From the IMG/VR virus record IMGVR_UViG_3300045988_053091: DNA of 64,000 bases. The stretch is one strand, 5' to 3'. Source of the DNA: a virus. Both the position numbers and the translations under genes were made by a program. Numbering within the stretch: position 1 is the stretch's first letter; every line of letters starts with the position of its first letter. The notes under the pieces were generated by a model. It saw only the letters and a program-made list of their open reading frames with translations, did not search any database and was not told where the DNA came from. Shown in pieces: positions 13,444-25,345 of the stretch.

Positions 13444-14025
13444 AGTATTACACCACAAGTTAGTGGTTAAAAATTGAAAACTTAATAGATTTTGAACCTA
13501 GTGCAGAAAGTTTGAACAGCTTGCTAGGATAACGTGGCGTGAATCTGGATGTAACCGAAGGTGCGATAGTGCTTTGGGTTGCAGGTAGGTCTTATGGTGA
13601 CATAGGAGTAACTATTAGTAAAAGCTAATATCAGTTAAGCGTTATGTGGAGTATACATGGATTGTAAGGTACAAGACTCTTGGGGGATACAATAGACGTT
13701 CCTGTGGAAAAGAATCCAAGTTAGGTGGAAGTGTGAGAAGCTTGGCAGACCTTGGAAAACTCAAAAGACTCCCTTTGACGAGAACTGTAGAAATACAGGT
13801 TTAACAAGAGACCTTGGTACAAGTAGCTTAAGTCAGCTTTTGATGAAAATATTATAAAAGACATAAGGATATATGTTCATTAATACTTTTAATAGCTGAA
13901 TGTTTAGGTGAACGTTGTTAGCCACCGTGCTAGACCATACATTAAAGGCAGAGAGAAGCTATCGGGTAGCTCCCGATGGTTCAGCCTCTCTGAGTATGTG
14001 ACCGAATGCAGTGAGTGTATATGAA

Positions 14026-14068
14026 GCAGGAAGAAAAGCCCTTAATCTATTAAGTTTTGAGTTTTTAA
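14026..14068 (+). repeat. 43-nt direct repeat, copy A1
   Basis: GCAGGAAGAAAAGCCCTTAATCTATTAAGTTTTGAGTTTTTAA, identical to 14527-14569. Confidence 0.95.
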
Positions 14069-14428
14069 ACATGTCACTGTGGCGGAAGTAGAAAATGCTA
14101 TGGTAGTAAACCTGTTATGAGTAGTTTTTATCTATTAAGTTAACACTTTAATAGGCGTGAGTGGGGCAGTACCACTCCAGTGACTTAAAGAACCTACGGA
14201 AACAATCAATCTTATCGGATGCCGATTGGTTGGCTGAATTAAGCAGTGTGTCTGCGAATCAGTTAATAGGCATAAAATACTAGCACAGACGTGTGCCGCT
14301 CTCAGGTGTAGGTTAGGAGAGAAACATTAGCAACCGAGGGTTGGAAATGGGCGCTCAAAGTACACGAGCAAGGCGATGTCGGTAGTAATCGACGGAATCG
14401 GTGTAGGTTGCTTGATAGAGCTATAACT

Positions 14429-14526: not shown

Positions 14527-14569
14527 GCAGGAAGAAAAGCCCTTAATCTATTAAGTTTTGAGTTTTTAA
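14527..14569 (+). repeat. 43-nt direct repeat, copy A2
   Basis: Identical to 14026-14068; lies 16 nt upstream of the next tRNA-like gene. Confidence 0.95.
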
Positions 14570-14585
14570 CCAAACTTGTATTACT

Positions 14586-18543: not shown

Positions 18544-18891
18544 GGGGCTGTTTTGGTTTCGACTGGCGTAAGGAGTATATGAATAGCGGGCAGAGTGATG
18601 ACTTAATCATCGCAGTAAATATAACTGCTAAAAACGAAGAATTATTAGCTGTAGCCTAGTTTTAGACTAGCTACACACTTACCCCTCTAGACTAGGGTCG
18701 GTTCTACCTAGAGGACTCATTAACCGACAACGCTGAGGTAAAAGTGGATAACTCAGGAGAGGCTTTACCACTCAGTTAAGGTAATTTCAGTTATTAGTTG
18801 TAACCTTAACGTAGATTAAAACTAGTAACTACGCCCGTAGAATTTTGTATGGTTCTACGTCAACACAGGGGTTCGATTCCCCTCAGTTCCA
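18544..18891 (+). ncRNA. ssrA: tmRNA (SsrA), phage-encoded
   Basis: The 5' end GGGGCTGTTTTGGTTTCGACTGGCG and the 3' end AGGGG-TTCGATT-CCCCT-CAGTTCC-A form the tRNA-like domain. Internal tag frame is GCT AAA AAC GAA GAA TTA TTA GCT GTA GCC TAG (AKNEELLAVA), 18627-18659. Confidence 0.8.
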
Positions 18892-18896
18892 TTTTG

Positions 18897-21087: not shown

Positions 21088-21120
21088 GGGGCATTAGCTC
21101 AGTTGGGAGAGCGCTACCCT
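21088..21120 (+). pseudogene. 5' half of an Ala-like tRNA (G3.U70) ending two nt into the anticodon loop
   Basis: GGGGCAT-TA-GCTC-AGTTGGG-AGAGC-G-CTACC-CT. Confidence 0.65.
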
Positions 21121-21934
21121 ATTTAAATTATTTTTTAGCCAATTCGAACACTAAGATGTAGTTATGCTATATTAGTGTTCGAAGAGGTGGAAAGTATGGT
21201 TAAAGTAAGTAAAGTTTACAGTGTAAGTGATGAAGATTTTAAGCTAGTTGTTGCTAATTCTAACACAATCACAGATATTCTTTGGAAGTTAGGATACAGT
21301 AAATCTTCTGGAACAGGTAACGCCAGAAATTTAATCAAAAAGCGGATAGCTGAACTAGGCATTACCTTCCAGTCACAACCAGTCAAATCTAGCAGAATGT
21401 CAGACGAGAGCTTTTATGTTAAAGGAACTTATCGTAGTAACCTACGAGTAAGAGTTCTACAAGATGGTTTCTTAGAGTATAAATGTTCGGAATGTGGTAT
21501 AACTAGTACTTGGAACGGTAAACCGTTAACTCTACAATTAGACCACGTTGACGGGGATGCTACAAATAATGAAAAGCCGAATTTACGATGGTTATGCCCT
21601 AATTGCCATACACAAACAGAGACGTATGGGTCAAAGAACAAAGGAAGCACAAGGACTAAGCATAGAGGAACTTATGGTGAACGAGAATGTAAGTATTGCC
21701 ATAAAATGTTTACTGCCAAGAACAGAGAATCCATGTTCTGTAGCGGGCAGTGTTCTGGTAAAAGCCGTAAGAAGACTCCACCTGTTTCTAAAGAAGACCT
21801 ACTAGCTTTGTTAGAAAAGGAGTCATTTTTGTCAGTGGGTCGTAAGTTTGACGTTTCAGATAACACTGTACGTAAATGGTGTATGCGTTATGATATACCT
21901 AGTAAGTCTTCTTATTATAAAAAATAATTTAAAT
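21121..21934 (+). mobile_element. 814-bp HNH-endonuclease insertion in the tRNA anticodon loop, bounded by a perfect 16-nt inverted repeat
   Basis: ATTTAAATTATTTTTT (21121-21136) and AAAAAATAATTTAAAT (21919-21934). Only about 82 nt are non-coding. Confidence 0.7.
21196..21927 (+). CDS. HNH homing endonuclease
   Basis: LDHVDGDATNNEKPNLRWLCPNCHTQ HNH motif with flanking HTH-like regions. ATG 21196 behind a GAGGTGG RBS. -10 TGCTATATT at 21165-21173 sits between 12-bp inverted repeats. Confidence 0.85.
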   Translation: MVKVSKVYSVSDEDFKLVVANSNTITDILWKLGYSKSSGTGNARNLIKKRIAELGITFQSQPVKSSRMSDESFYVKGTYRSNLRVRVLQDGFLEYKCSECGITSTWNGKPLTLQLDHVDGDATNNEKPNLRWLCPNCHTQTETYGSKNKGSTRTKHRGTYGERECKYCHKMFTAKNRESMFCSGQCSGKSRKKTPPVSKEDLLALLEKESFLSVGRKFDVSDNTVRKWCMRYDIPSKSSYYKK

Positions 21935-21971
21935 AAGGTAGATGTCAGCGGTTCAAGTCCGCTATGCTCCA
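21935..21971 (+). pseudogene. 3' half of the Ala-like tRNA
   Basis: AA-GGTAG-ATGTC-AGCGG-TTCAAGT-CCGCT-ATGCTCC-A; GGTAG pairs with CTACC of the 5' half. Confidence 0.65.
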
Positions 21972-22095: not shown

Positions 22096-22260
22096 ATTAG
22101 GATTGGTCATCCTTGTTCAGGGTTGCAAACCTGTAACAGAATACGAGGTGAATTAACACCATATTGGGCGTTACCCTAGATTCCTGTCAAATCTATTGGT
22201 ACGGTAACTAGACTAGGTGTGTGTAATCGGAAGATGACAGGTACACAAGCCTATCCAATA

Positions 22261-22337
22261 GGACAGTGTTACACGGGTTCGATTCCCGTCCTGCGGGTTG
22301 TCCCTGCGGGTGGCTGAATGGTTAAAGCACACTGTCC
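22261..22337 (+). ncRNA. circularly permuted tRNA-like RNA domain (YrlA-type tRNA mimic candidate)
   Basis: 8-bp closing stem GGACAGTG/CACTGTCC, 4-nt variable, T-arm ACGGG-TTCGATT-CCCGT, 8-bp acceptor-like stem CCTGCGGG/CCTGCGGG (G.U-containing) capped by TTGTC, then TG and D-arm GCT-GAATGGTTAA-AGC. Confidence 0.5.
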
Positions 22338-22372
22338 CGAATGGATAAATTAAAAAAACTTACAAATAGTTG

Positions 22373-22732: not shown

Positions 22733-22928
22733 TATTCGTATCGCCTTGCGCCTCTTAATATGCGTACCAAGGGTGGTCTATTGGGTTGTATGTAGGCATT
22801 GTGTATATAAGACTAGTCACGTGTGAGGCAATACTAGTTGAAGTTATACAATGTACCCCATTAATACACTATGAGAGCTACCTCACTAAAAGTTTTTGTA
22901 CATTGTATTGATATATACATACTTATAC

Positions 22929-23010
22929 GGGGAGTTATACCGTAAGTAGTAGCGGGGCTGACTGTAAATCAGTTGCGAAAGCTCGGGTGGTGCAACTCCA
23001 TCACTCCCCA
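22929..23010 (+). tRNA. tRNA-Tyr (GTA), class II, unusual T-loop TGCAACT
   Basis: Acceptor GGGGAGT/ACTCCCC, anticodon arm GCTGA-CTGTAAA-TCAGT, variable arm GC-GAAA-GC. Confidence 0.7.
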
Positions 23011-23040
23011 TTAAAATAAAATGACCGGAGGTCACATAAC

Positions 23041-23265: not shown

Positions 23266-23289
23266 GTTTCAATATATTTAAATTAATAC

Positions 23290-23318
23290 TTGACAGTTTA
23301 AATAGCTTATGCTATTAT
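23290..23318 (+). promoter_or_regulatory. promoter of the Y-RNA-like transcription unit
   Basis: TTGACA, 17-nt spacer, TGCTATTAT. Confidence 0.7.
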
Positions 23319-23334
23319 AAAGACAAGATAAAAA

Positions 23335-23515
23335 GGTTTTGACATATGTCATAGTTCCAACCTAACAGGTAGCCGGAACATAAAGAACGCCACAGCAAAC
23401 TTTTAAAACTAATACATCTGGAAAATGTGAGTTGTTGGTTCGAATCCAACTGCCACCCTTGGTGGTATAGCTTAATTGGTAAAGCTTAAAGTTAATGCGT
23501 TCTTGTTACATAAAT
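23335..23515 (+). ncRNA. Y-RNA-like RNA 1 with internal permuted tRNA-like domain (YrlA-like candidate)
   Basis: Conserved 5' module shared with RNA 2. Helix AAGAACGC (23383-23390) pairs with GCGTTCTT (23497-23504). Inner helix 23398-23406/23486-23493. T-arm GTTGG-TTCGAAT-CCAAC. 7-bp acceptor-like stem capped by CTT. D-arm GCTT-AATTGGTA-AAGC. Confidence 0.5.
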
Positions 23516-23520
23516 AAAAC

Positions 23521-23640
23521 GGTTTTAGCATAGCTATAGTTCCATCCTTAATGGGTGCCGGAACATAAAGAACCCTACAGCAATCAACTACTAATATATT
23601 AAAACTATTGAATTTAATTAAGCCTGTGGTTCTTGATATT
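23521..23640 (+). ncRNA. Y-RNA-like RNA 2 (no tRNA-like domain; YrlB-like candidate)
   Basis: The first ~60 nt are homologous to RNA 1, with compensatory changes in two hairpins. Helix AAGAACC (23568-23574) pairs with GGTTCTT (23628-23634) around an AT-rich loop. Confidence 0.4.
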
Positions 23641-23698
23641 GTAATGACAAGTTAAACGGTAGCCGCTAAACCGAATGTTTAACTGTCGGTTATTTGAA

Positions 23699-23726
23699 AC
23701 TCATTCTTAATTGAATGGGTTTTTTA
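23699..23726 (+). terminator. intrinsic terminator
   Basis: ACTCATTC/GAATGGGT stem then TTTTTTATTT. Confidence 0.7.
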
Positions 23727-23739
23727 TTTATAAAAGGCG

Positions 23740-23768
23740 TTGACTTACATAATATTACATGTTATAGT
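23740..23768 (+). promoter_or_regulatory. sigma-A-type promoter of the vWA protein gene
   Basis: TTGACT, 17-nt spacer, TGTTATAGT. Confidence 0.7.
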
Positions 23769-23809
23769 TATGTTAGACAAAACATTACCATACAAAGGAG
23801 AAATGTCAG

Positions 23810-25345
23810 ATGTCGTTTTTAGACAACCTAAAAGAAGAAACAACTGTTGGCTCTACAGAAAATGGAGCTAAAACTTATACATCAACTTTAAACGCTAACT
23901 TAGACTTCTTTGCACAAGCAGGGGCTATGCGTGGTCGTTTAGAAGATGTACGAAACATGTTTTCTAAAGCTTATGCTGAAAACCCAGAGTTAGCATTACG
24001 CAATTTGGTACACTTACGTAATATCCGTTTAGGTGGATTGGGTGAACGTTCCGCTTACCTAGAAGCAATCAAATACTTAGTGGATGGTCGTAACCAAAAC
24101 AAGCAAGTAATCGTTACTTTAATGGAGTACATGGCATATGTTGGTCGTTGGACAGACTTATTTGAAACTATGGAGTACGCACACAAACGTAGTATTCACT
24201 TTGTGGATACAGAAGGCGCACGTATCATCGGTAACCAACTAACATCTGATATTAAAAATATGTCAGAAGGTAAGCCTGTATCATTACTAGGTAAATGGTT
24301 AGCTAATGTAAGTTCTCCAAATAGCAAGAAACGTAATCAAGGTGCTCGTATTGCTAACTATTTAGGTTTTGAAGGCAAAGCAGGTCTAACTCGTTATCGT
24401 AAAATGATTGCTAAATTACGTGATTACTTAAATGTAATTGAAGTTCGGTTAGCAAGCAAGGAATACCATAAGATTGATTTGAACCAAGTATCCTCTAAAG
24501 CATTGTTCAAATACCGTAAAGCTTTGCAATTACACATGCCAGATGAATATGAAGCGCTTATGGAAAAGGTGGAGTCGGGTGAAGGAAAGCTTAATGCAAG
24601 TTTGGTATTACCTCACGAGATTACAGGAGCATACCGTAAAGCACGTGCAGGTCAGGGTGTAAATCGTTCTTTAGAAGCTACTTGGCAGTCTTTAGATGAT
24701 GTTATTAAGGATGTGGAAGATAACGCAATTGTAGTTGCTGATTCTTCTAGTTCAATGACTTGGGAACAAACGAACGGGGTTTACCCTTGGGATGTTGCAC
24801 AAGGTTTAGCATTATACACGGCTGAAAAATTAAACGGTACTTTCGCTAATCATTTCATTACATTTGCATCAGAACCTAGTTTAGTATATTTGAATCCACA
24901 GGATACTGTGTATGACCGTATGAGAGCATATAACAGTGCAAGAGTTGGCTATTCTACTAATATTCAAGCAGTGTTCCGATTGATTCTTGATACTGCGGTT
25001 AAGCATAACACACCGCAAGAAGAACTACCATCCAAGATTATTATTATCAGTGATATGGAATTTAATACTGCTTGTGAACGAGGACAAAGAACAAACTTTG
25101 AGCAAGCAAAACAGGAGTTTGCAAATCATGGCTACGAGTTACCTGCTATTATTTTCTGGAATGTACAATCTCGTCATGATAATGTACCAGTACGGTTTAA
25201 TGAAGATAATGTTGCGTTAGTTTCTGGATTTTCCACAAATATTTTATCGCAAGTACTAGGTGGGGAAGTTACTTCCCCAGAAGAAATGATGTTGTCTGTT
25301 TTAAATAAACCAGAATACGACTTTGTAAAAGAAGCACTTAAATAA
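23810..25345 (+). CDS. helical-repeat plus vWA (MIDAS) protein, DUF2828-like, with Ro60/TROVE-like architecture
   Basis: The N-terminus TENGAKTYTSTLNANLDFFAQAGAMRG..LRNLVHLRNIRLGGLGERSAYLEA resembles the DUF2828 family. The C-terminal VVADSSSSMTW..IIISDMEFN is a vWA fold with a DxSxS MIDAS motif. Confidence 0.55.
   Translation: MSFLDNLKEETTVGSTENGAKTYTSTLNANLDFFAQAGAMRGRLEDVRNMFSKAYAENPELALRNLVHLRNIRLGGLGERSAYLEAIKYLVDGRNQNKQVIVTLMEYMAYVGRWTDLFETMEYAHKRSIHFVDTEGARIIGNQLTSDIKNMSEGKPVSLLGKWLANVSSPNSKKRNQGARIANYLGFEGKAGLTRYRKMIAKLRDYLNVIEVRLASKEYHKIDLNQVSSKALFKYRKALQLHMPDEYEALMEKVESGEGKLNASLVLPHEITGAYRKARAGQGVNRSLEATWQSLDDVIKDVEDNAIVVADSSSSMTWEQTNGVYPWDVAQGLALYTAEKLNGTFANHFITFASEPSLVYLNPQDTVYDRMRAYNSARVGYSTNIQAVFRLILDTAVKHNTPQEELPSKIIIISDMEFNTACERGQRTNFEQAKQEFANHGYELPAIIFWNVQSRHDNVPVRFNEDNVALVSGFSTNILSQVLGGEVTSPEEMMLSVLNKPEYDFVKEALK

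What the first reader, a model, noticed from the sequence alone, without database searches (positions are those of the whole stretch)
23398..23493. Circularly permuted tRNA-like domain inside Y-RNA-like RNA 1
Seen in sequence, in 5' to 3' order. First, the strand AACTTTTAA (23398-23406), which pairs with TTAAAGTT (23486-23493) as an anticodon-stem analogue left open at the bottom. Then a 27-nt variable segment containing an ACAT/ATGT hairpin. Then the T-arm GTTGG-TTCGAAT-CCAAC (23434-23450). Then a 7-bp acceptor-stem analogue, TGCCACC/GGTGGTA, closed by a CTT triloop (23451-23467). Then TA and the D-arm GCTT-AATTGGTA-AAGC (23470-23485). All tRNA arms are present but in permuted order, with no free acceptor end and no anticodon loop. 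Established knowledge: this is the topology expected for the tRNA mimic of bacterial YrlA Y RNAs.
Basis: partly seen in the sequence, partly recalled or inferred. Interest (0 to 1): 0.7.

Follow-up and report, generated by a model that had tools for sequence, protein, structure and literature searches.

The report
Phage Y-RNA with rearranged tRNA shape
An Enterococcus phage encodes, just upstream of a Ro60-like ring protein, a small RNA whose middle is a tRNA look-alike with its arms in rotated order; it is a real, conserved variant of bacterial YrlA "Y RNAs" and belongs to a large RNA-protein family I did not find described in the literature I could search.

Summary
The strings and coordinates are exact. 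Three arms are real and conserved: T arm 23434-23450, loop-closed 7-bp acceptor analogue 23451-23467, U8-A9, and D arm 23470-23485. In 45 related RNAs 94.5% of pair cells are paired, 15 of 16 pairs change on both sides, and the 15:48 Levitt pair co-varies.

The AACTTTTAA/TTAAAGTT helix is no better than chance. The "27-nt variable segment" holds a hairpin (23413-23429) with a 5-bp stem and a 7-nt loop, CUGGAAA. That loop carries the C32, U33, A37, A38 signature conserved across the family, and a 4-nt variable loop follows it. So an anticodon-arm mimic is probably present, and the permutation break lies at positions 26/27.

The domain sits in a 123-nt RNA closed by an 8-bp stem next to a conserved ACAGCAA motif. 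The gene downstream (DUF2828/DUF7788) is predicted with high confidence to fold like Ro60. ACAGCA-bearing RNAs accompany that protein family in 145 of 160 loci.

It fails the Rfam YrlA threshold and lacks the GNCGAA motif. I rate it a new variant of a known kind. Function is inferred: a Y-RNA adaptor or decoy for a phage Ro60-like protein.

The parts
23290..23318 (+). Sigma-70-type promoter-like site (TTGACA, 17 nt, TATTAT, with TG before the second hexamer) for the small-RNA transcript
   Evidence: 11 of 12 consensus matches. Conserved in related phages. A consensus match only; no transcription data.
23354..23379 (+). Hairpin that precedes the unit: GTTCC-A-ACC-TAACA-GGT-AGCC-GGAAC. It is repeated before unit C at 23539-23564. 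Role unknown; possibly a processing or protein-binding signal.
   Evidence: Direct repeat D7. MFE fold. By eye, the outer stem changes to GCTCT/AGAGC and GCTTC/GAAGC in relatives.
23383..23390 (+). 5' strand of the terminal stem of Y-like RNA 1 (AAGAACGC)
   Evidence: Pairs with 23497-23504. Pair probabilities 0.79-1.0. In relatives it is replaced by AAGAATCTA/TAGATTCTT, TAGACAC/GTGTCTA, AAGACAC/GTGTCTT and others.
23392..23398 (+). Conserved ACAGCAA motif, 9 nt after the start of the stem. Candidate binding site for the Ro60-like protein.
   Evidence: CAGC is invariant in the seed alignment. ACAGCA occurs at 3.65 per kb on the gene strand in the 600 nt upstream of homologous genes, against 0.20 per kb on the other strand. 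145 of 160 loci have it within 600 nt. Binding itself is inferred.
23398..23406 (+).
   Evidence: Can pair with 23486-23493, but no better than chance.
23413..23429 (+). Anticodon-arm-like hairpin TACAT-CTGGAAA-ATGTG: 5-bp stem and 7-nt loop, with GGA in the anticodon position
   Evidence: Pair probabilities 0.70-0.87. The family-wide loop signature is C32 in 26, U33 in 29, A37 in 29 and A38 in 24 of 31 loops. 7-nt-loop hairpins number 31 against 6.8 in shuffles; those with U33 and A37 number 28 against 0.7. Close relatives differ only at the loop centre: CTGAAAA and CTGCAAA.
23430..23433 (+). Variable-loop analogue AGTT. Its last base is U48, the Levitt partner of A15 (23475).
   Evidence: The 15:48 combinations in 45 RNAs are G:C 19, A:U 19, G:U 4, A:C 2 and G:G 1. 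These columns are unpaired in the model.
23434..23450 (+). T arm GTTGG-TTCGAAT-CCAAC
   Evidence: 100% paired in 45 RNAs, with 4 of 5 pairs changing on both sides. GGTTC, then A and TCC, are invariant in the seeds.
23451..23467 (+). Acceptor-stem analogue TGCCACC/GGTGGTA (7 bp, one G-U) closed by the CTT triloop
   Evidence: All 7 pairs change on both sides in the family; 87.6% paired. Pair probabilities 0.82-1.0.
23468..23469 (+). U8-A9 analogue (TA)
   Evidence: TA in 40 of 45 family members.
23470..23485 (+). D arm GCTT-AATTGGTA-AAGC (A14, A15, G18, G19 equivalents)
   Evidence: 98.3% paired, with 4 of 4 pairs changing on both sides.
23486..23496 (+). 3' linker TTAAAGTTAAT.
   Evidence: pairing with the 5' linker is marginal.
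23497..23505 (+). 3' strand of the terminal stem (GCGTTCTT) plus a conserved G
   Evidence: The 3' end ...CTTG recurs across the family.
23568..23635 (+). Y-like RNA 2 (unit C): AAGAACC...ACAGCAA (23577-23583)...GGTTCTTG, with no tRNA-like domain
   Evidence: The same unit is present in relatives, which also carry an extra tRNA-like unit B between A and C.
23696..23723 (+). Intrinsic-terminator-like hairpin followed by a T run; the likely end of the small-RNA transcript
23810..25345 (+). Gene for a 511-aa Ro60-like protein (Pfam DUF2828 + DUF7788/vWA with a DxSxS MIDAS motif; PHROG 850), with its own promoter-like site at 23740-23768
   Evidence: AlphaFold model pLDDT 91.5. The top 12 Foldseek PDB hits are all Ro60 (1yvr TM 0.63, E 2e-8; Thermus phage phiLo Ro60; D. 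radiodurans Rsr).

Best explanation
Positions 23383-23505 encode a roughly 123-nt Y-RNA-like noncoding RNA. It is probably cut from a roughly 400-nt transcript that runs from the promoter-like site at 23290 to the terminator-like site at 23723.

Its two ends form an 8-bp stem. This stem, together with the adjacent single-stranded ACAGCAA, is the likely docking site for the Ro60-like ring protein encoded 300 nt downstream.

The body of the RNA is a tRNA mimic in rotated order: anticodon-arm-like hairpin, 4-nt variable loop, T arm, acceptor stem closed by a triloop, U8-A9, D arm. The chain therefore enters and leaves the cloverleaf at the 26/27 junction. D-loop/T-loop and 15:48 contacts would fold it into the tRNA L-shape.

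By analogy with Ro60/Y RNA particles, the RNA would tether or gate the phage Ro60-like protein. The tRNA-shaped module would then recruit, or act as a decoy for, a host factor that recognises tRNA. Candidates are modification enzymes, RNase P, the CCA-adding enzyme, an exoribonuclease such as PNPase, an RNA-repair ligase, or a tRNA-directed defence nuclease.

Shown here: the sequence anatomy, covariation of three arms and the Levitt pair, the loop signature, the genomic linkage, and a confident prediction of the Ro60 fold. Inferred: transcription and processing, protein binding at ACAGCAA, the L-shape, and the effector.
For: Anatomy and thermodynamics.

Covariation in 45 homologues: 94.5% of cells paired, 15 of 16 pairs with changes on both sides, covariation score 0.698 against 0.199 in shuffles and at most 0.183 in slid controls.

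Levitt pair: G15:C48 in 19 and A15:U48 in 19 of 45, in columns the model treats as unpaired.

Anticodon-loop-like signature and its excess over shuffles.

Rfam YrlA is the only family matching the whole unit, at E 2e-5 (the tRNA model gives two weak partial matches); the core aligns with high posterior probability.

Partner protein: confident model, and all of the top 12 PDB fold matches are Ro60.

Linkage: all 181 model hits lie on the strand of the gene. ACAGCA is 18-fold strand-biased and enriched just upstream of the gene, and 145 of 160 loci have it within 600 nt. Units also lie next to the homologous gene in mycobacteriophage Faith1 and in Felix O1.

Separate promoter-like and terminator-like sites, and units lying downstream of the gene in other phages, argue for a trans-acting RNA rather than a leader.

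Precedent: YrlA and Rsr (PMC4201824; bioRxiv 10.1101/312249). Thermus phage phiLo Ro60 binds two Y-like RNAs and host PNPase (PMC12135203). A Ro60-like gp130 of the Felixounavirus Bas63, which lies upstream of tRNA genes, counters the Ppl defence (PMC11482910).
Against: - There is no expression, processing or binding data for this phage.
- The RNA scores 33.2 bits against the Rfam YrlA gathering score of 69, and none of 20 related loci reaches that score.
- The canonical Ro-binding motif GNCGAAN0-1G is absent.
- The protein has no sequence-level match to solved Ro60 structures. The Ro60 relation rests on a predicted structure with TM 0.45-0.63.
- The anticodon-arm reading rests on family-level loop conservation only. 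ARAGORN calls the re-permuted construct a tRNA, but it also does so for 180 of 200 constructs in which the hairpin was shuffled, so that test is not diagnostic.
- The covariation alignment was fitted to the model structure and contains related sequences. A few members may be junctions between tandem tRNA-like genes.
- Only 26 of 160 loci have a strictly defined permuted domain, so the tRNA mimic is not obligatory for the family.
Confidence: 0.65

Rival explanations
1. It has exactly the YrlA topology the reader proposed. The two A/U-rich flanks (23398-23406 and 23486-23493) form the anticodon-stem analogue that continues into the protein-binding stem. The ACAT/ATGT hairpin is a long variable arm, as in class II tRNAs. 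There is no anticodon-loop mimic.
For: An 8-bp helix with one bulge can be drawn, and its six core pairs have probabilities of 0.25-0.40. In phage phiSHEF16 the C at 23400 is a T, which keeps the pair as U-G. L006 has a different pairable pair of flanks, TTAACTT/AAGGTAA. Family members without the hairpin (L126, L146, L142, L101, L110) do appear to use a short flank-flank helix next to the D arm, followed by a 5-nt variable loop, as in Rfam YrlA; this is by eye. In the solved YrlA structure the anticodon stem is formed in this way (bioRxiv 10.1101/312249).
Against: The helix is no better than shuffles for this RNA (17% and 12% of shuffles do as well) or across the family (mean z -0.35; median fraction 0.42). 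It costs +0.5 kcal/mol when added to the core and appears in neither the MFE nor the centroid structure. From established tRNA knowledge, class II variable arms are followed by only 1-2 nt before the T arm and have 3-5-nt loops. Here 4-5 nt follow the hairpin, and the loop is 7 nt with the Y32-U33...R37 pattern.
Confidence: 0.25
2. It is a decaying remnant of two adjacent phage tRNA genes: the 3' part of one and the 5' part of the next, at the end of the 20-tRNA cluster. It would have no function of its own.
For: The window carries 20 tRNAs and a tmRNA just upstream. Junctions of tandem tRNAs are a known source of false YrlA-like hits (PMC4201824). The Rfam tRNA model gives long hits across tandem units in L007 and L010, and L007 has an encoded ACCA between its 'acceptor' strands. 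A dimeric-tRNA origin has been proposed for YrlA (bioRxiv 10.1101/312249).
Against: The acceptor strands are separated by only a 3-nt loop with no CCA, and they change together in the family. The domain is enclosed by a strong 8-bp stem next to a motif that tracks the Ro60-like gene across phages of Firmicutes, Actinobacteria and Proteobacteria. The 15:48 tertiary pair is maintained by covariation. The RNA is 94-99% conserved in 27 of the 31 matching Enterococcus phage records, and the sampled differences in unit A (Bill, phiSHEF16, EA1, L005) lie mostly in loops.
Confidence: 0.05
3. It is a cis-acting leader that controls expression of the downstream Ro60-like gene. It would be a tRNA-shaped sensor or attenuator, for example one read by a tRNA-binding factor.
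For: It lies on the same strand, directly upstream of the gene, and a terminator-like hairpin sits between them.
Against: The gene has its own promoter-like site after the terminator. In Faith1, Felix O1 and many metagenomic loci the units lie downstream of the gene or among tRNAs. Units occur in tandem arrays of 2-8. No expression platform that overlaps the ribosome-binding site was seen.
Confidence: 0.05

Closest known systems
YrlA (Y RNA-like A; Rfam RF02553) of Salmonella, Mycobacterium and other bacteria and mycobacteriophages, bound by Rsr/Ro60
   Same: It is a modular RNA with a terminal stem carrying a short conserved motif for the Ro60-type protein, plus a tRNA-like domain in the order (V)-T arm-closed acceptor-UA-D arm. 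It has the G15:C48 / A15:U48 Levitt covariation. It is encoded next to the protein gene and on the same strand, and a shorter companion RNA without the full domain lies beside it (YrlB there, unit C here). It is the only Rfam family whose match covers the whole unit.
   Different: It scores 33 bits against a gathering score of 69. The motif is ACAGCAA, not GNCGAAN0-1G. The partner is a DUF2828/DUF7788 protein that Pfam does not recognise as TROVE. The flank-flank anticodon stem is not supported. [quoted passage not shown]
Yrl1/Yrl2 of Thermus phage phiLo with phage Ro60 (PDB 9KOP, 9L5Y)
   Same: A phage-encoded Ro60-type protein has two Y-like RNA genes immediately upstream. The phiLo protein is among the best structural matches to the window protein. 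There is experimental precedent for a phage Ro60/Y RNP that engages host PNPase (PMC12135203).
   Different: The phiLo RNAs were identified by a CGAA motif in a stem-bulge-stem, and that paper does not describe them as tRNA-like. Sequence identity between the proteins is about 16-17%.
D. radiodurans Yrn1 and metazoan Y RNAs
   Same: A terminal stem acts as the Ro60 site and an effector module sits in the body. Yrn1 has a T-arm-like element and a possible anticodon-like arm in non-permuted orientation. Some members of the present family (L130:444, L138:1406) likewise carry D, anticodon and T arms in normal order inside the ACAGCAA stem.
   Different: The conserved nucleotides of the Ro-binding helix differ, and the arm order differs from that of the window RNA.
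Other tRNA mimics: the tmRNA tRNA-like domain, the TYMV TLS, and circularly permuted tRNA genes of red algae
   Same: They share the T-loop/D-loop elbow and L-shape logic. Permuted tRNA genes also place the 3' half before the 5' half.
   Different: Those have, or acquire, a free CCA end and are aminoacylated. Algal permuted tRNAs are re-circularised and cut to give a normal tRNA. Here the acceptor is closed by a triloop and the ends are locked in a protein-binding stem.

Membership tests
YrlA (Rfam RF02553) | Scores at or above the family's gathering score (69 bits) with the Rfam covariance model | tested here: not met
   33.2 bits, E 2.1e-5 in a 601-nt search. Not listed in the gathering-threshold scan of the window. 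No YrlA hit at the gathering score in 20 related loci.
YrlA (Chen 2014 definition) | T arm, closed acceptor-like stem-loop, UA dinucleotide and D arm in that 5'-to-3' order, with the invariant tRNA nucleotides | tested here: met
   GGTTCGAATCC T loop, TA, A14 and G18 G19. Three helices change together in 45 homologues.
YrlA (Chen 2014; Wang 2018) | [quoted passage not shown] | tested here: met
   G:C 19, A:U 19, other 7 of 45. The window has A15 (23475) and U48 (23433).
YrlA (Chen 2014) | GNCGAAN0-1G motif near the 5' end (the presumed Rsr contact) | tested here: not met
   Read from the sequence: the 5' part reads AAGAACGCCACAGCAAAC. The motif conserved in the family is ACAGCAA.
YrlA (Wang 2018 structure) | Anticodon-stem analogue formed by the 5' and 3' flanks and continuing to the Ro-binding module; no anticodon loop | tested here: inconclusive
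   The flank helix is possible but no better than chance. An anticodon-arm-like hairpin is present instead. Probing or a structure is needed.
YrlA / Y RNA in general | Encoded within a few kb of a Ro60 (TROVE + vWA) gene and on the same strand | tested here: met
   The gene starts 305 nt downstream on the same strand. The fold match to Ro60 rests on a predicted model. Caveat: Pfam assigns DUF2828 and DUF7788, not TROVE, and no sequence-level PDB hit was found.
Y RNA in general | Physically bound by the Ro60-type protein; stable small RNA in vivo | not testable with these tools
   Needs co-immunoprecipitation or EMSA, and Northern blot or RNA-seq.
YrlA | Substrate of tRNA enzymes (TruB pseudouridine 55, DusA dihydrouridine; RNase P and CCA addition when the acceptor stem is 7 bp) | not testable with these tools
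   The window RNA has the 7-bp stem and the T- and D-loop nucleotides that would allow this.
Canonical tRNA | Contiguous cloverleaf with a free 5' end and a 3' acceptor end | tested here: not met
   ARAGORN and the Rfam tRNA model call nothing here at threshold. There are only partial tRNA-model hits of 18.8 and 16.1 bits. The acceptor is closed by CTT.

The most novel reading that the evidence does not exclude
DUF2828/DUF7788 proteins are found in 707 phage records and in more than 4,800 protein clusters at 90% identity. They may form a second, previously unrecognised branch of Ro60. This branch would have its own class of Y RNAs, defined by a terminal stem plus ACAGCAA.

In this reading, phages use the tRNA-shaped cargo of these RNAs to bait or block host factors that attack or process tRNA. 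In the window RNA that cargo is a complete cloverleaf, including an anticodon-like loop whose central base differs between near-identical phages. The particle would then be a counter-defence, in line with the Ro60-like gp130 of Bas63 that neutralises the Ppl system.
Probability: 0.3. Interest if true: 0.8.

Novelty: new variant of a known kind. Interest (0 to 1): 0.62.

Why it matters
The effector that binds the tRNA-like module of bacterial Y RNAs is still unknown. This finding offers a second, large and mostly phage-borne set of such RNAs, with a different protein-binding motif and a range of body plans: permuted, non-permuted, T-arm only, nested, and no tRNA part at all. That gives natural variation with which to look for the effector.

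It also gives an RNA partner, and hence a testable mechanism, to a widespread family of phage proteins. These proteins are annotated at most as 'RNA-binding' or 'Ro-like'. One member has been reported to counter a bacterial defence system.

The retained anticodon-arm-like hairpin fits the published idea that YrlA arose from a tRNA dimer. It makes this RNA a plausible intermediate form.

Tried and rejected
- Sequence searches of the protein and of its 44-member profile against PDB found no Ro60. Only the predicted fold showed the relation.
In none of them did it stand out from shuffles.
- I re-permuted the domain in silico and ARAGORN called a tRNA in 18 of 18 constructs. The control showed that ARAGORN also of 200 constructs with a shuffled anticodon hairpin. 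I therefore dropped this as evidence for the anticodon arm.
- A loose automatic detector of 'ACAGC plus terminal stem' units gave too many hits on the wrong strand and inside genes. I replaced it with simple strand- and position-resolved hexamer counts.
- I looked for RNA-repair genes next to the locus. None lies within about 20 kb in the near-identical phage phiSHEF16, where the only nuclease annotated is a 3' exoribonuclease about 17 kb away. Listeria phage P100 does have an RtcB-type ligase 1.2 kb from its homologue.
- Literature searches for DUF2828, for TROVE with Enterococcus phage, and for YrlA with phage found no description of this RNA class. The supplementary tables of Chen 2014 and two Wolin-lab reviews were not available, so prior mention cannot be excluded.
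- A guess at the Bas63 accession number returned a different phage.
Full report
**Where the window comes from.** The window is from an Enterococcus phage of the Herelleviridae (Schiekvirus-like). The 461 bases around the finding match 31 Enterococcus phage records. The neighbouring protein is 99% identical to that of phage phiSHEF16. The finding lies in a 544-nt intergenic stretch (23266-23809). This stretch follows a cluster of 20 tRNA genes, a tmRNA and a ROOL RNA. It precedes a 511-codon ORF. None of the sampled GenBank records annotates anything in the stretch.

**Checking the observation.** All strings are at the stated coordinates.
- The T arm (23434-23450), the closed 7-bp acceptor analogue (23451-23467), TA, and the D arm (23470-23485) are each predicted with pair probabilities of 0.82-1.0.
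- Neither ARAGORN nor the Rfam tRNA model calls a tRNA here.
- In a permissive scan of 601 nt, the only family whose match covers the whole unit is YrlA, the 'Y RNA-like' family (the tRNA model gives two weak partial hits of 18.8 and 16.1 bits). It scores 33.2 bits with E 2e-5, and the three arms align at high posterior probability. That is well below the gathering score of 69.

**The larger RNA.** The domain is enclosed by an 8-bp stem, AAGAACGC (23383-23390) with GCGTTCTT (23497-23504), whose pair probabilities are 0.79-1.0.
- One base after the 5' strand comes ACAGCAA (23392-23398).
- A second unit with the same ends and motif, but no tRNA-like body, lies at 23568-23635.
- Each unit is preceded by a related hairpin.
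- A strong promoter-like site (23290-23318) and a terminator-like site (23696-23723) bracket both units. The ORF has its own promoter-like site.
- Related phages (Bill, phiSHEF16, A2, EA1) carry three units. Unit A resembles the window's. Unit B has a tRNA-like body of quite different sequence (GCAGG-TTCGAGT-CCTGC, CGGGAGG/CCTCCTG, TA, GCTC...GAGC). Unit C has no tRNA-like body. Phage A2 has yet another version of unit A.

**The neighbouring protein.**
- Pfam assigns DUF2828 and DUF7788 (a vWA-type domain). PHROGs calls it an 'RNA-binding protein'.
- Sequence and profile searches of PDB find no Ro60.
- An AlphaFold model built on 44 homologues is confident, with pLDDT 91.5 and pTM 0.91.
- Its 12 best PDB fold matches are all Ro60: Xenopus Ro (TM 0.63, E 2e-8), human Ro60, Thermus phage phiLo Ro60 and D. 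radiodurans Rsr. Every later match covers only the vWA domain.
- The MIDAS motif D311-x-S313-x-S315 is invariant in the family.
- The family is large. More than 4,800 clusters were scored. tblastn finds 707 phage records, among them Felix O1-like phages, Listeria P100-like phages, Bacillus, Staphylococcus, Vibrio and Campylobacter phages, and mycobacteriophages whose curators already label the gene 'Ro-like RNA binding protein'.

**Linkage of RNA and protein.** I fetched 160 loci that encode relatives of the protein, 80 viral and 80 from prokaryotic genomes.
- ACAGCA occurs at 3.65 per kb on the gene's strand in the 600 nt upstream of the gene. The figures are 0.20 per kb on the opposite strand and about 0.3 per kb inside the gene.
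- 131 loci have it upstream, and 145 of 160 have it within 600 nt on either side.
- I built a covariance model from 23 units. It found 150 and 31 matches in the two sets of loci, all on the gene's strand.
- The model also found units beside the homologous gene in mycobacteriophage Faith1 (52.5 bits) and Salmonella phage Felix O1 (40.3 bits), and a tRNA-less ACAGCAA unit in Listeria phage P100.
- The common frame is 5' AAGAC-N4-ACAGCAA ... GTCTTG 3'.

**Covariation of the tRNA-like core.** In the 45 best matches the three helices are 100%, 87.6% and 98.3% paired. Fifteen of 16 pairs show changes on both sides (205 cells). The covariation score is 0.698, against 0.199 for shuffles (0 of 500 reach it) and at most 0.183 when partners are slid by 1-3 columns. 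The alignment is fitted to the model, so these counts lean towards the structure.

An independent check is the Levitt tertiary pair, whose columns the model treats as unpaired. D-loop position 15 and the base just before the T arm are G:C in 19, A:U in 19 and something else in 7 of the 45. The window has A15:U48. The same covariation was used to argue for the tRNA fold of YrlA (PMC4201824; bioRxiv 10.1101/312249).

- The duplex between the two linkers is -3.4 kcal/mol, and 17% of shuffles of the 3' linker do as well.
- When the helix is required to start within 2 nt of the D arm, 12% of shuffles do as well.
- Across 27-28 non-redundant units the mean z is -0.35 and the median shuffle fraction is 0.42.
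- Pair probabilities are 0.03-0.40. Adding the helix to the core raises the energy by 0.5 kcal/mol. It is absent from both the MFE and the centroid structures.
- Two small points favour it. A C-to-U change in phiSHEF16 keeps the pair as G-U. L006 has a different but pairable pair of flanks.
- Members that lack the hairpin described below do seem to use a short flank helix next to the D arm, as in Rfam YrlA. This is by eye.
- I therefore treat this helix as possible but unproven for the window RNA.

**An anticodon-arm-like hairpin.** Directly 5' of the T arm, separated by AGTT, lies TACAT-CTGGAAA-ATGTG (23413-23429), with pair probabilities of 0.70-0.87.
- Among 106 distinct family members with at least 20 nt between the motif and the T arm, 57 have a hairpin that ends 3-7 nt before the T arm.
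- 31 of these have a 7-nt loop, against 6.8 in shuffles (maximum 15).
- 28 have both U at loop position 2 and A at position 6, against 0.7 in shuffles (maximum 4).
- In the 7-nt loops, position 32 is C in 26, 33 is U in 29, 37 is A in 29 and 38 is A in 24 of 31. The three central positions vary.

From established tRNA knowledge this is the anticodon-loop pattern (Y32, U33, NNN, R37). A 5-bp stem followed by a 4-5-nt linker is the spacing of anticodon arm, variable loop and T arm in class I tRNAs. It is not the spacing of a class II variable arm.

Near-identical Enterococcus phages differ at the central loop base: CTGGAAA, CTGAAAA, CTGCAAA. ARAGORN calls the in-silico re-permuted domain a tRNA. 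It also does so after the hairpin is shuffled (180 of 200), so that test carries no weight.

The most likely topology is therefore a complete cloverleaf opened at the 26/27 junction and closed at the acceptor end. This differs from solved YrlA, which lacks an anticodon loop. [quoted passage not shown] On that view the first tRNA's anticodon arm would still be present here.

**Diversity of the family.** Besides permuted units, the family contains several other forms:
- units with only a T arm (L144);
- units with D, anticodon and T arms in normal order inside the ACAGCAA stem (L130:444, L138:1406);
- a unit with a second ACAGCAA-type module nested in the acceptor loop (L010:4209);
- units with no tRNA part (the window's unit C, L113, L066).

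In some tandem arrays the Rfam tRNA model spans from the D arm of one unit to the T arm of the next. L007 has an encoded ACCA between the 'acceptor' strands. Some members may therefore be tandem tRNA-like genes with the protein-binding module in place of the anticodon arm. That reading does not apply to the window. Its single tRNA-like unit is locked by its own terminal stem, and in relatives the acceptor strands of neighbouring units are not complementary. Strictly defined permuted units occur in 17 of 80 viral and 9 of 80 genomic loci, which is a lower bound.

**Likely mechanism.** This part is inferred. By analogy with Ro60/Y RNA particles, the terminal stem plus ACAGCAA would dock on the Ro60-like ring, and the tRNA-shaped body would bind an effector.
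- In D. radiodurans a Y RNA tethers Rsr to PNPase, and YrlA is modified by TruB and DusA. M. smegmatis YrlA, which has a 7-bp acceptor stem like the window RNA, is cut by RNase P and receives CCA (PMC4201824).
- Thermus phage phiLo Ro60 binds two phage Y-like RNAs and host PNPase and dampens its activity (PMC12135203).
- A preprint reports that the Ro60-like gp130 of phage Bas63 lies just upstream of that phage's tRNA genes and counters the Ppl defence system (PMC11482910).
- From my own knowledge, Bas63 is phage JohannRWettstein, which is classified as a Felixounavirus. The Felix O1 homologue belongs to the window protein's family and has an ACAGCAA unit among its tRNAs.
- A role in phage counter-defence or in controlling host RNA turnover is therefore plausible but untested.

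**Comparison and novelty.** The RNA works like YrlA but fails three membership tests: the Rfam score, the GNCGAA motif, and the anticodon-stem/no-anticodon-loop topology (the last is inconclusive). Its partner belongs to a protein family that Pfam does not link to TROVE. The literature I could search has no description of this RNA class. The original YrlA survey was restricted to genomes annotated with TROVE proteins. The Ro-like nature of the protein is already reflected in some phage annotations. I rate the finding a new variant of a known kind.

Noticed in passing
window 22215-22345 (+): A second permuted tRNA-like domain: T arm ACGGG-TTCGATT-CCCGT, acceptor analogue CCTGCGGG-TTGTC-CCTGCGGG closed by a loop, and D arm GCT-GAATGGTTA-AGC. 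A perfect 9-bp stem GGACAGTGT/ACACTGTCC encloses it, with a further outer stem TATCCA/TGGATA. It has no ACAGCAA, but a CGAA lies in the internal loop. My model scores it 32 bits. It is conserved in related phages and is not called as a tRNA.
   Followed up: partly
window 21088-21120 and 21935-21971 (+): tRNA-Ala(TGC) is split. Its first 33 nt and last 37 nt match the intact gene of phage Bill exactly. They are separated by an 814-nt insertion in the anticodon-loop region that contains an HNH-endonuclease ORF (21175-21927). This is probably an intron with a homing endonuclease. ARAGORN and Rfam do not call this tRNA.
   Followed up: partly
window 23354-23379 and 23539-23564 (+): A conserved hairpin with an asymmetric internal loop (GTTCC-A-ACC-TAACA-GGT-AGCC-GGAAC) precedes each Y-like unit by 3 nt. 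By eye, its outer stem changes in a compensatory way in relatives (GCTCT/AGAGC, GCTTC/GAAGC). A related GGTAGCCG string recurs at about 23659. It may be a processing or protein-binding signal.
   Followed up: partly
window 23568-23635 (+): A second Y-like RNA (unit C) has the same ends and ACAGCAA motif but no tRNA-like body. Relatives have a third unit (B), with a tRNA-like body, between A and C. That unit is missing from this window.
   Followed up: yes
window 13473-14059 (+) and 18544-18894 (+): A ROOL RNA (267.9 bits) and a phage-encoded tmRNA (tag peptide AKNEELLAVA) lie within the same tRNA-rich region as the Y-like RNAs. A 46-nt stretch at the 3' end of ROOL is repeated 500 nt downstream (14026-14071 and 14527-14572).
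   Followed up: no
window 15324, 16762, 19677 and 22920-23011 (+): T-arm-like sequences (GGTTCGAATCC and similar) lie outside any called tRNA. At 22920-23011 there is a tRNA-shaped sequence with acceptor strands GGGGAGT/ACTCCCC, a CTGTAAA anticodon-like loop and an odd T loop (TGCAACT). Neither tool calls it.
   Followed up: no
L007:2075-2427, L010:4209-4829: In some relatives the units form tandem arrays in which the Rfam tRNA model spans about 114 nt, from the D arm of one unit to the T arm of the next. L007 has ACCA encoded after the 3' acceptor strand. L010:4209 has a second ACAGCAA-type module nested in the acceptor loop. These may be tRNA-like genes with the protein-binding module in place of the anticodon arm.
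   Followed up: partly
L166 (Listeria phage P100) 5271-6509: An RtcB-type 'tRNA splicing ligase' gene lies about 1.2 kb downstream of the Ro60-like gene. This echoes the rsr-yrlBA-rtcBA operon of Salmonella. No such gene is near the locus in the Enterococcus phages.
   Followed up: no
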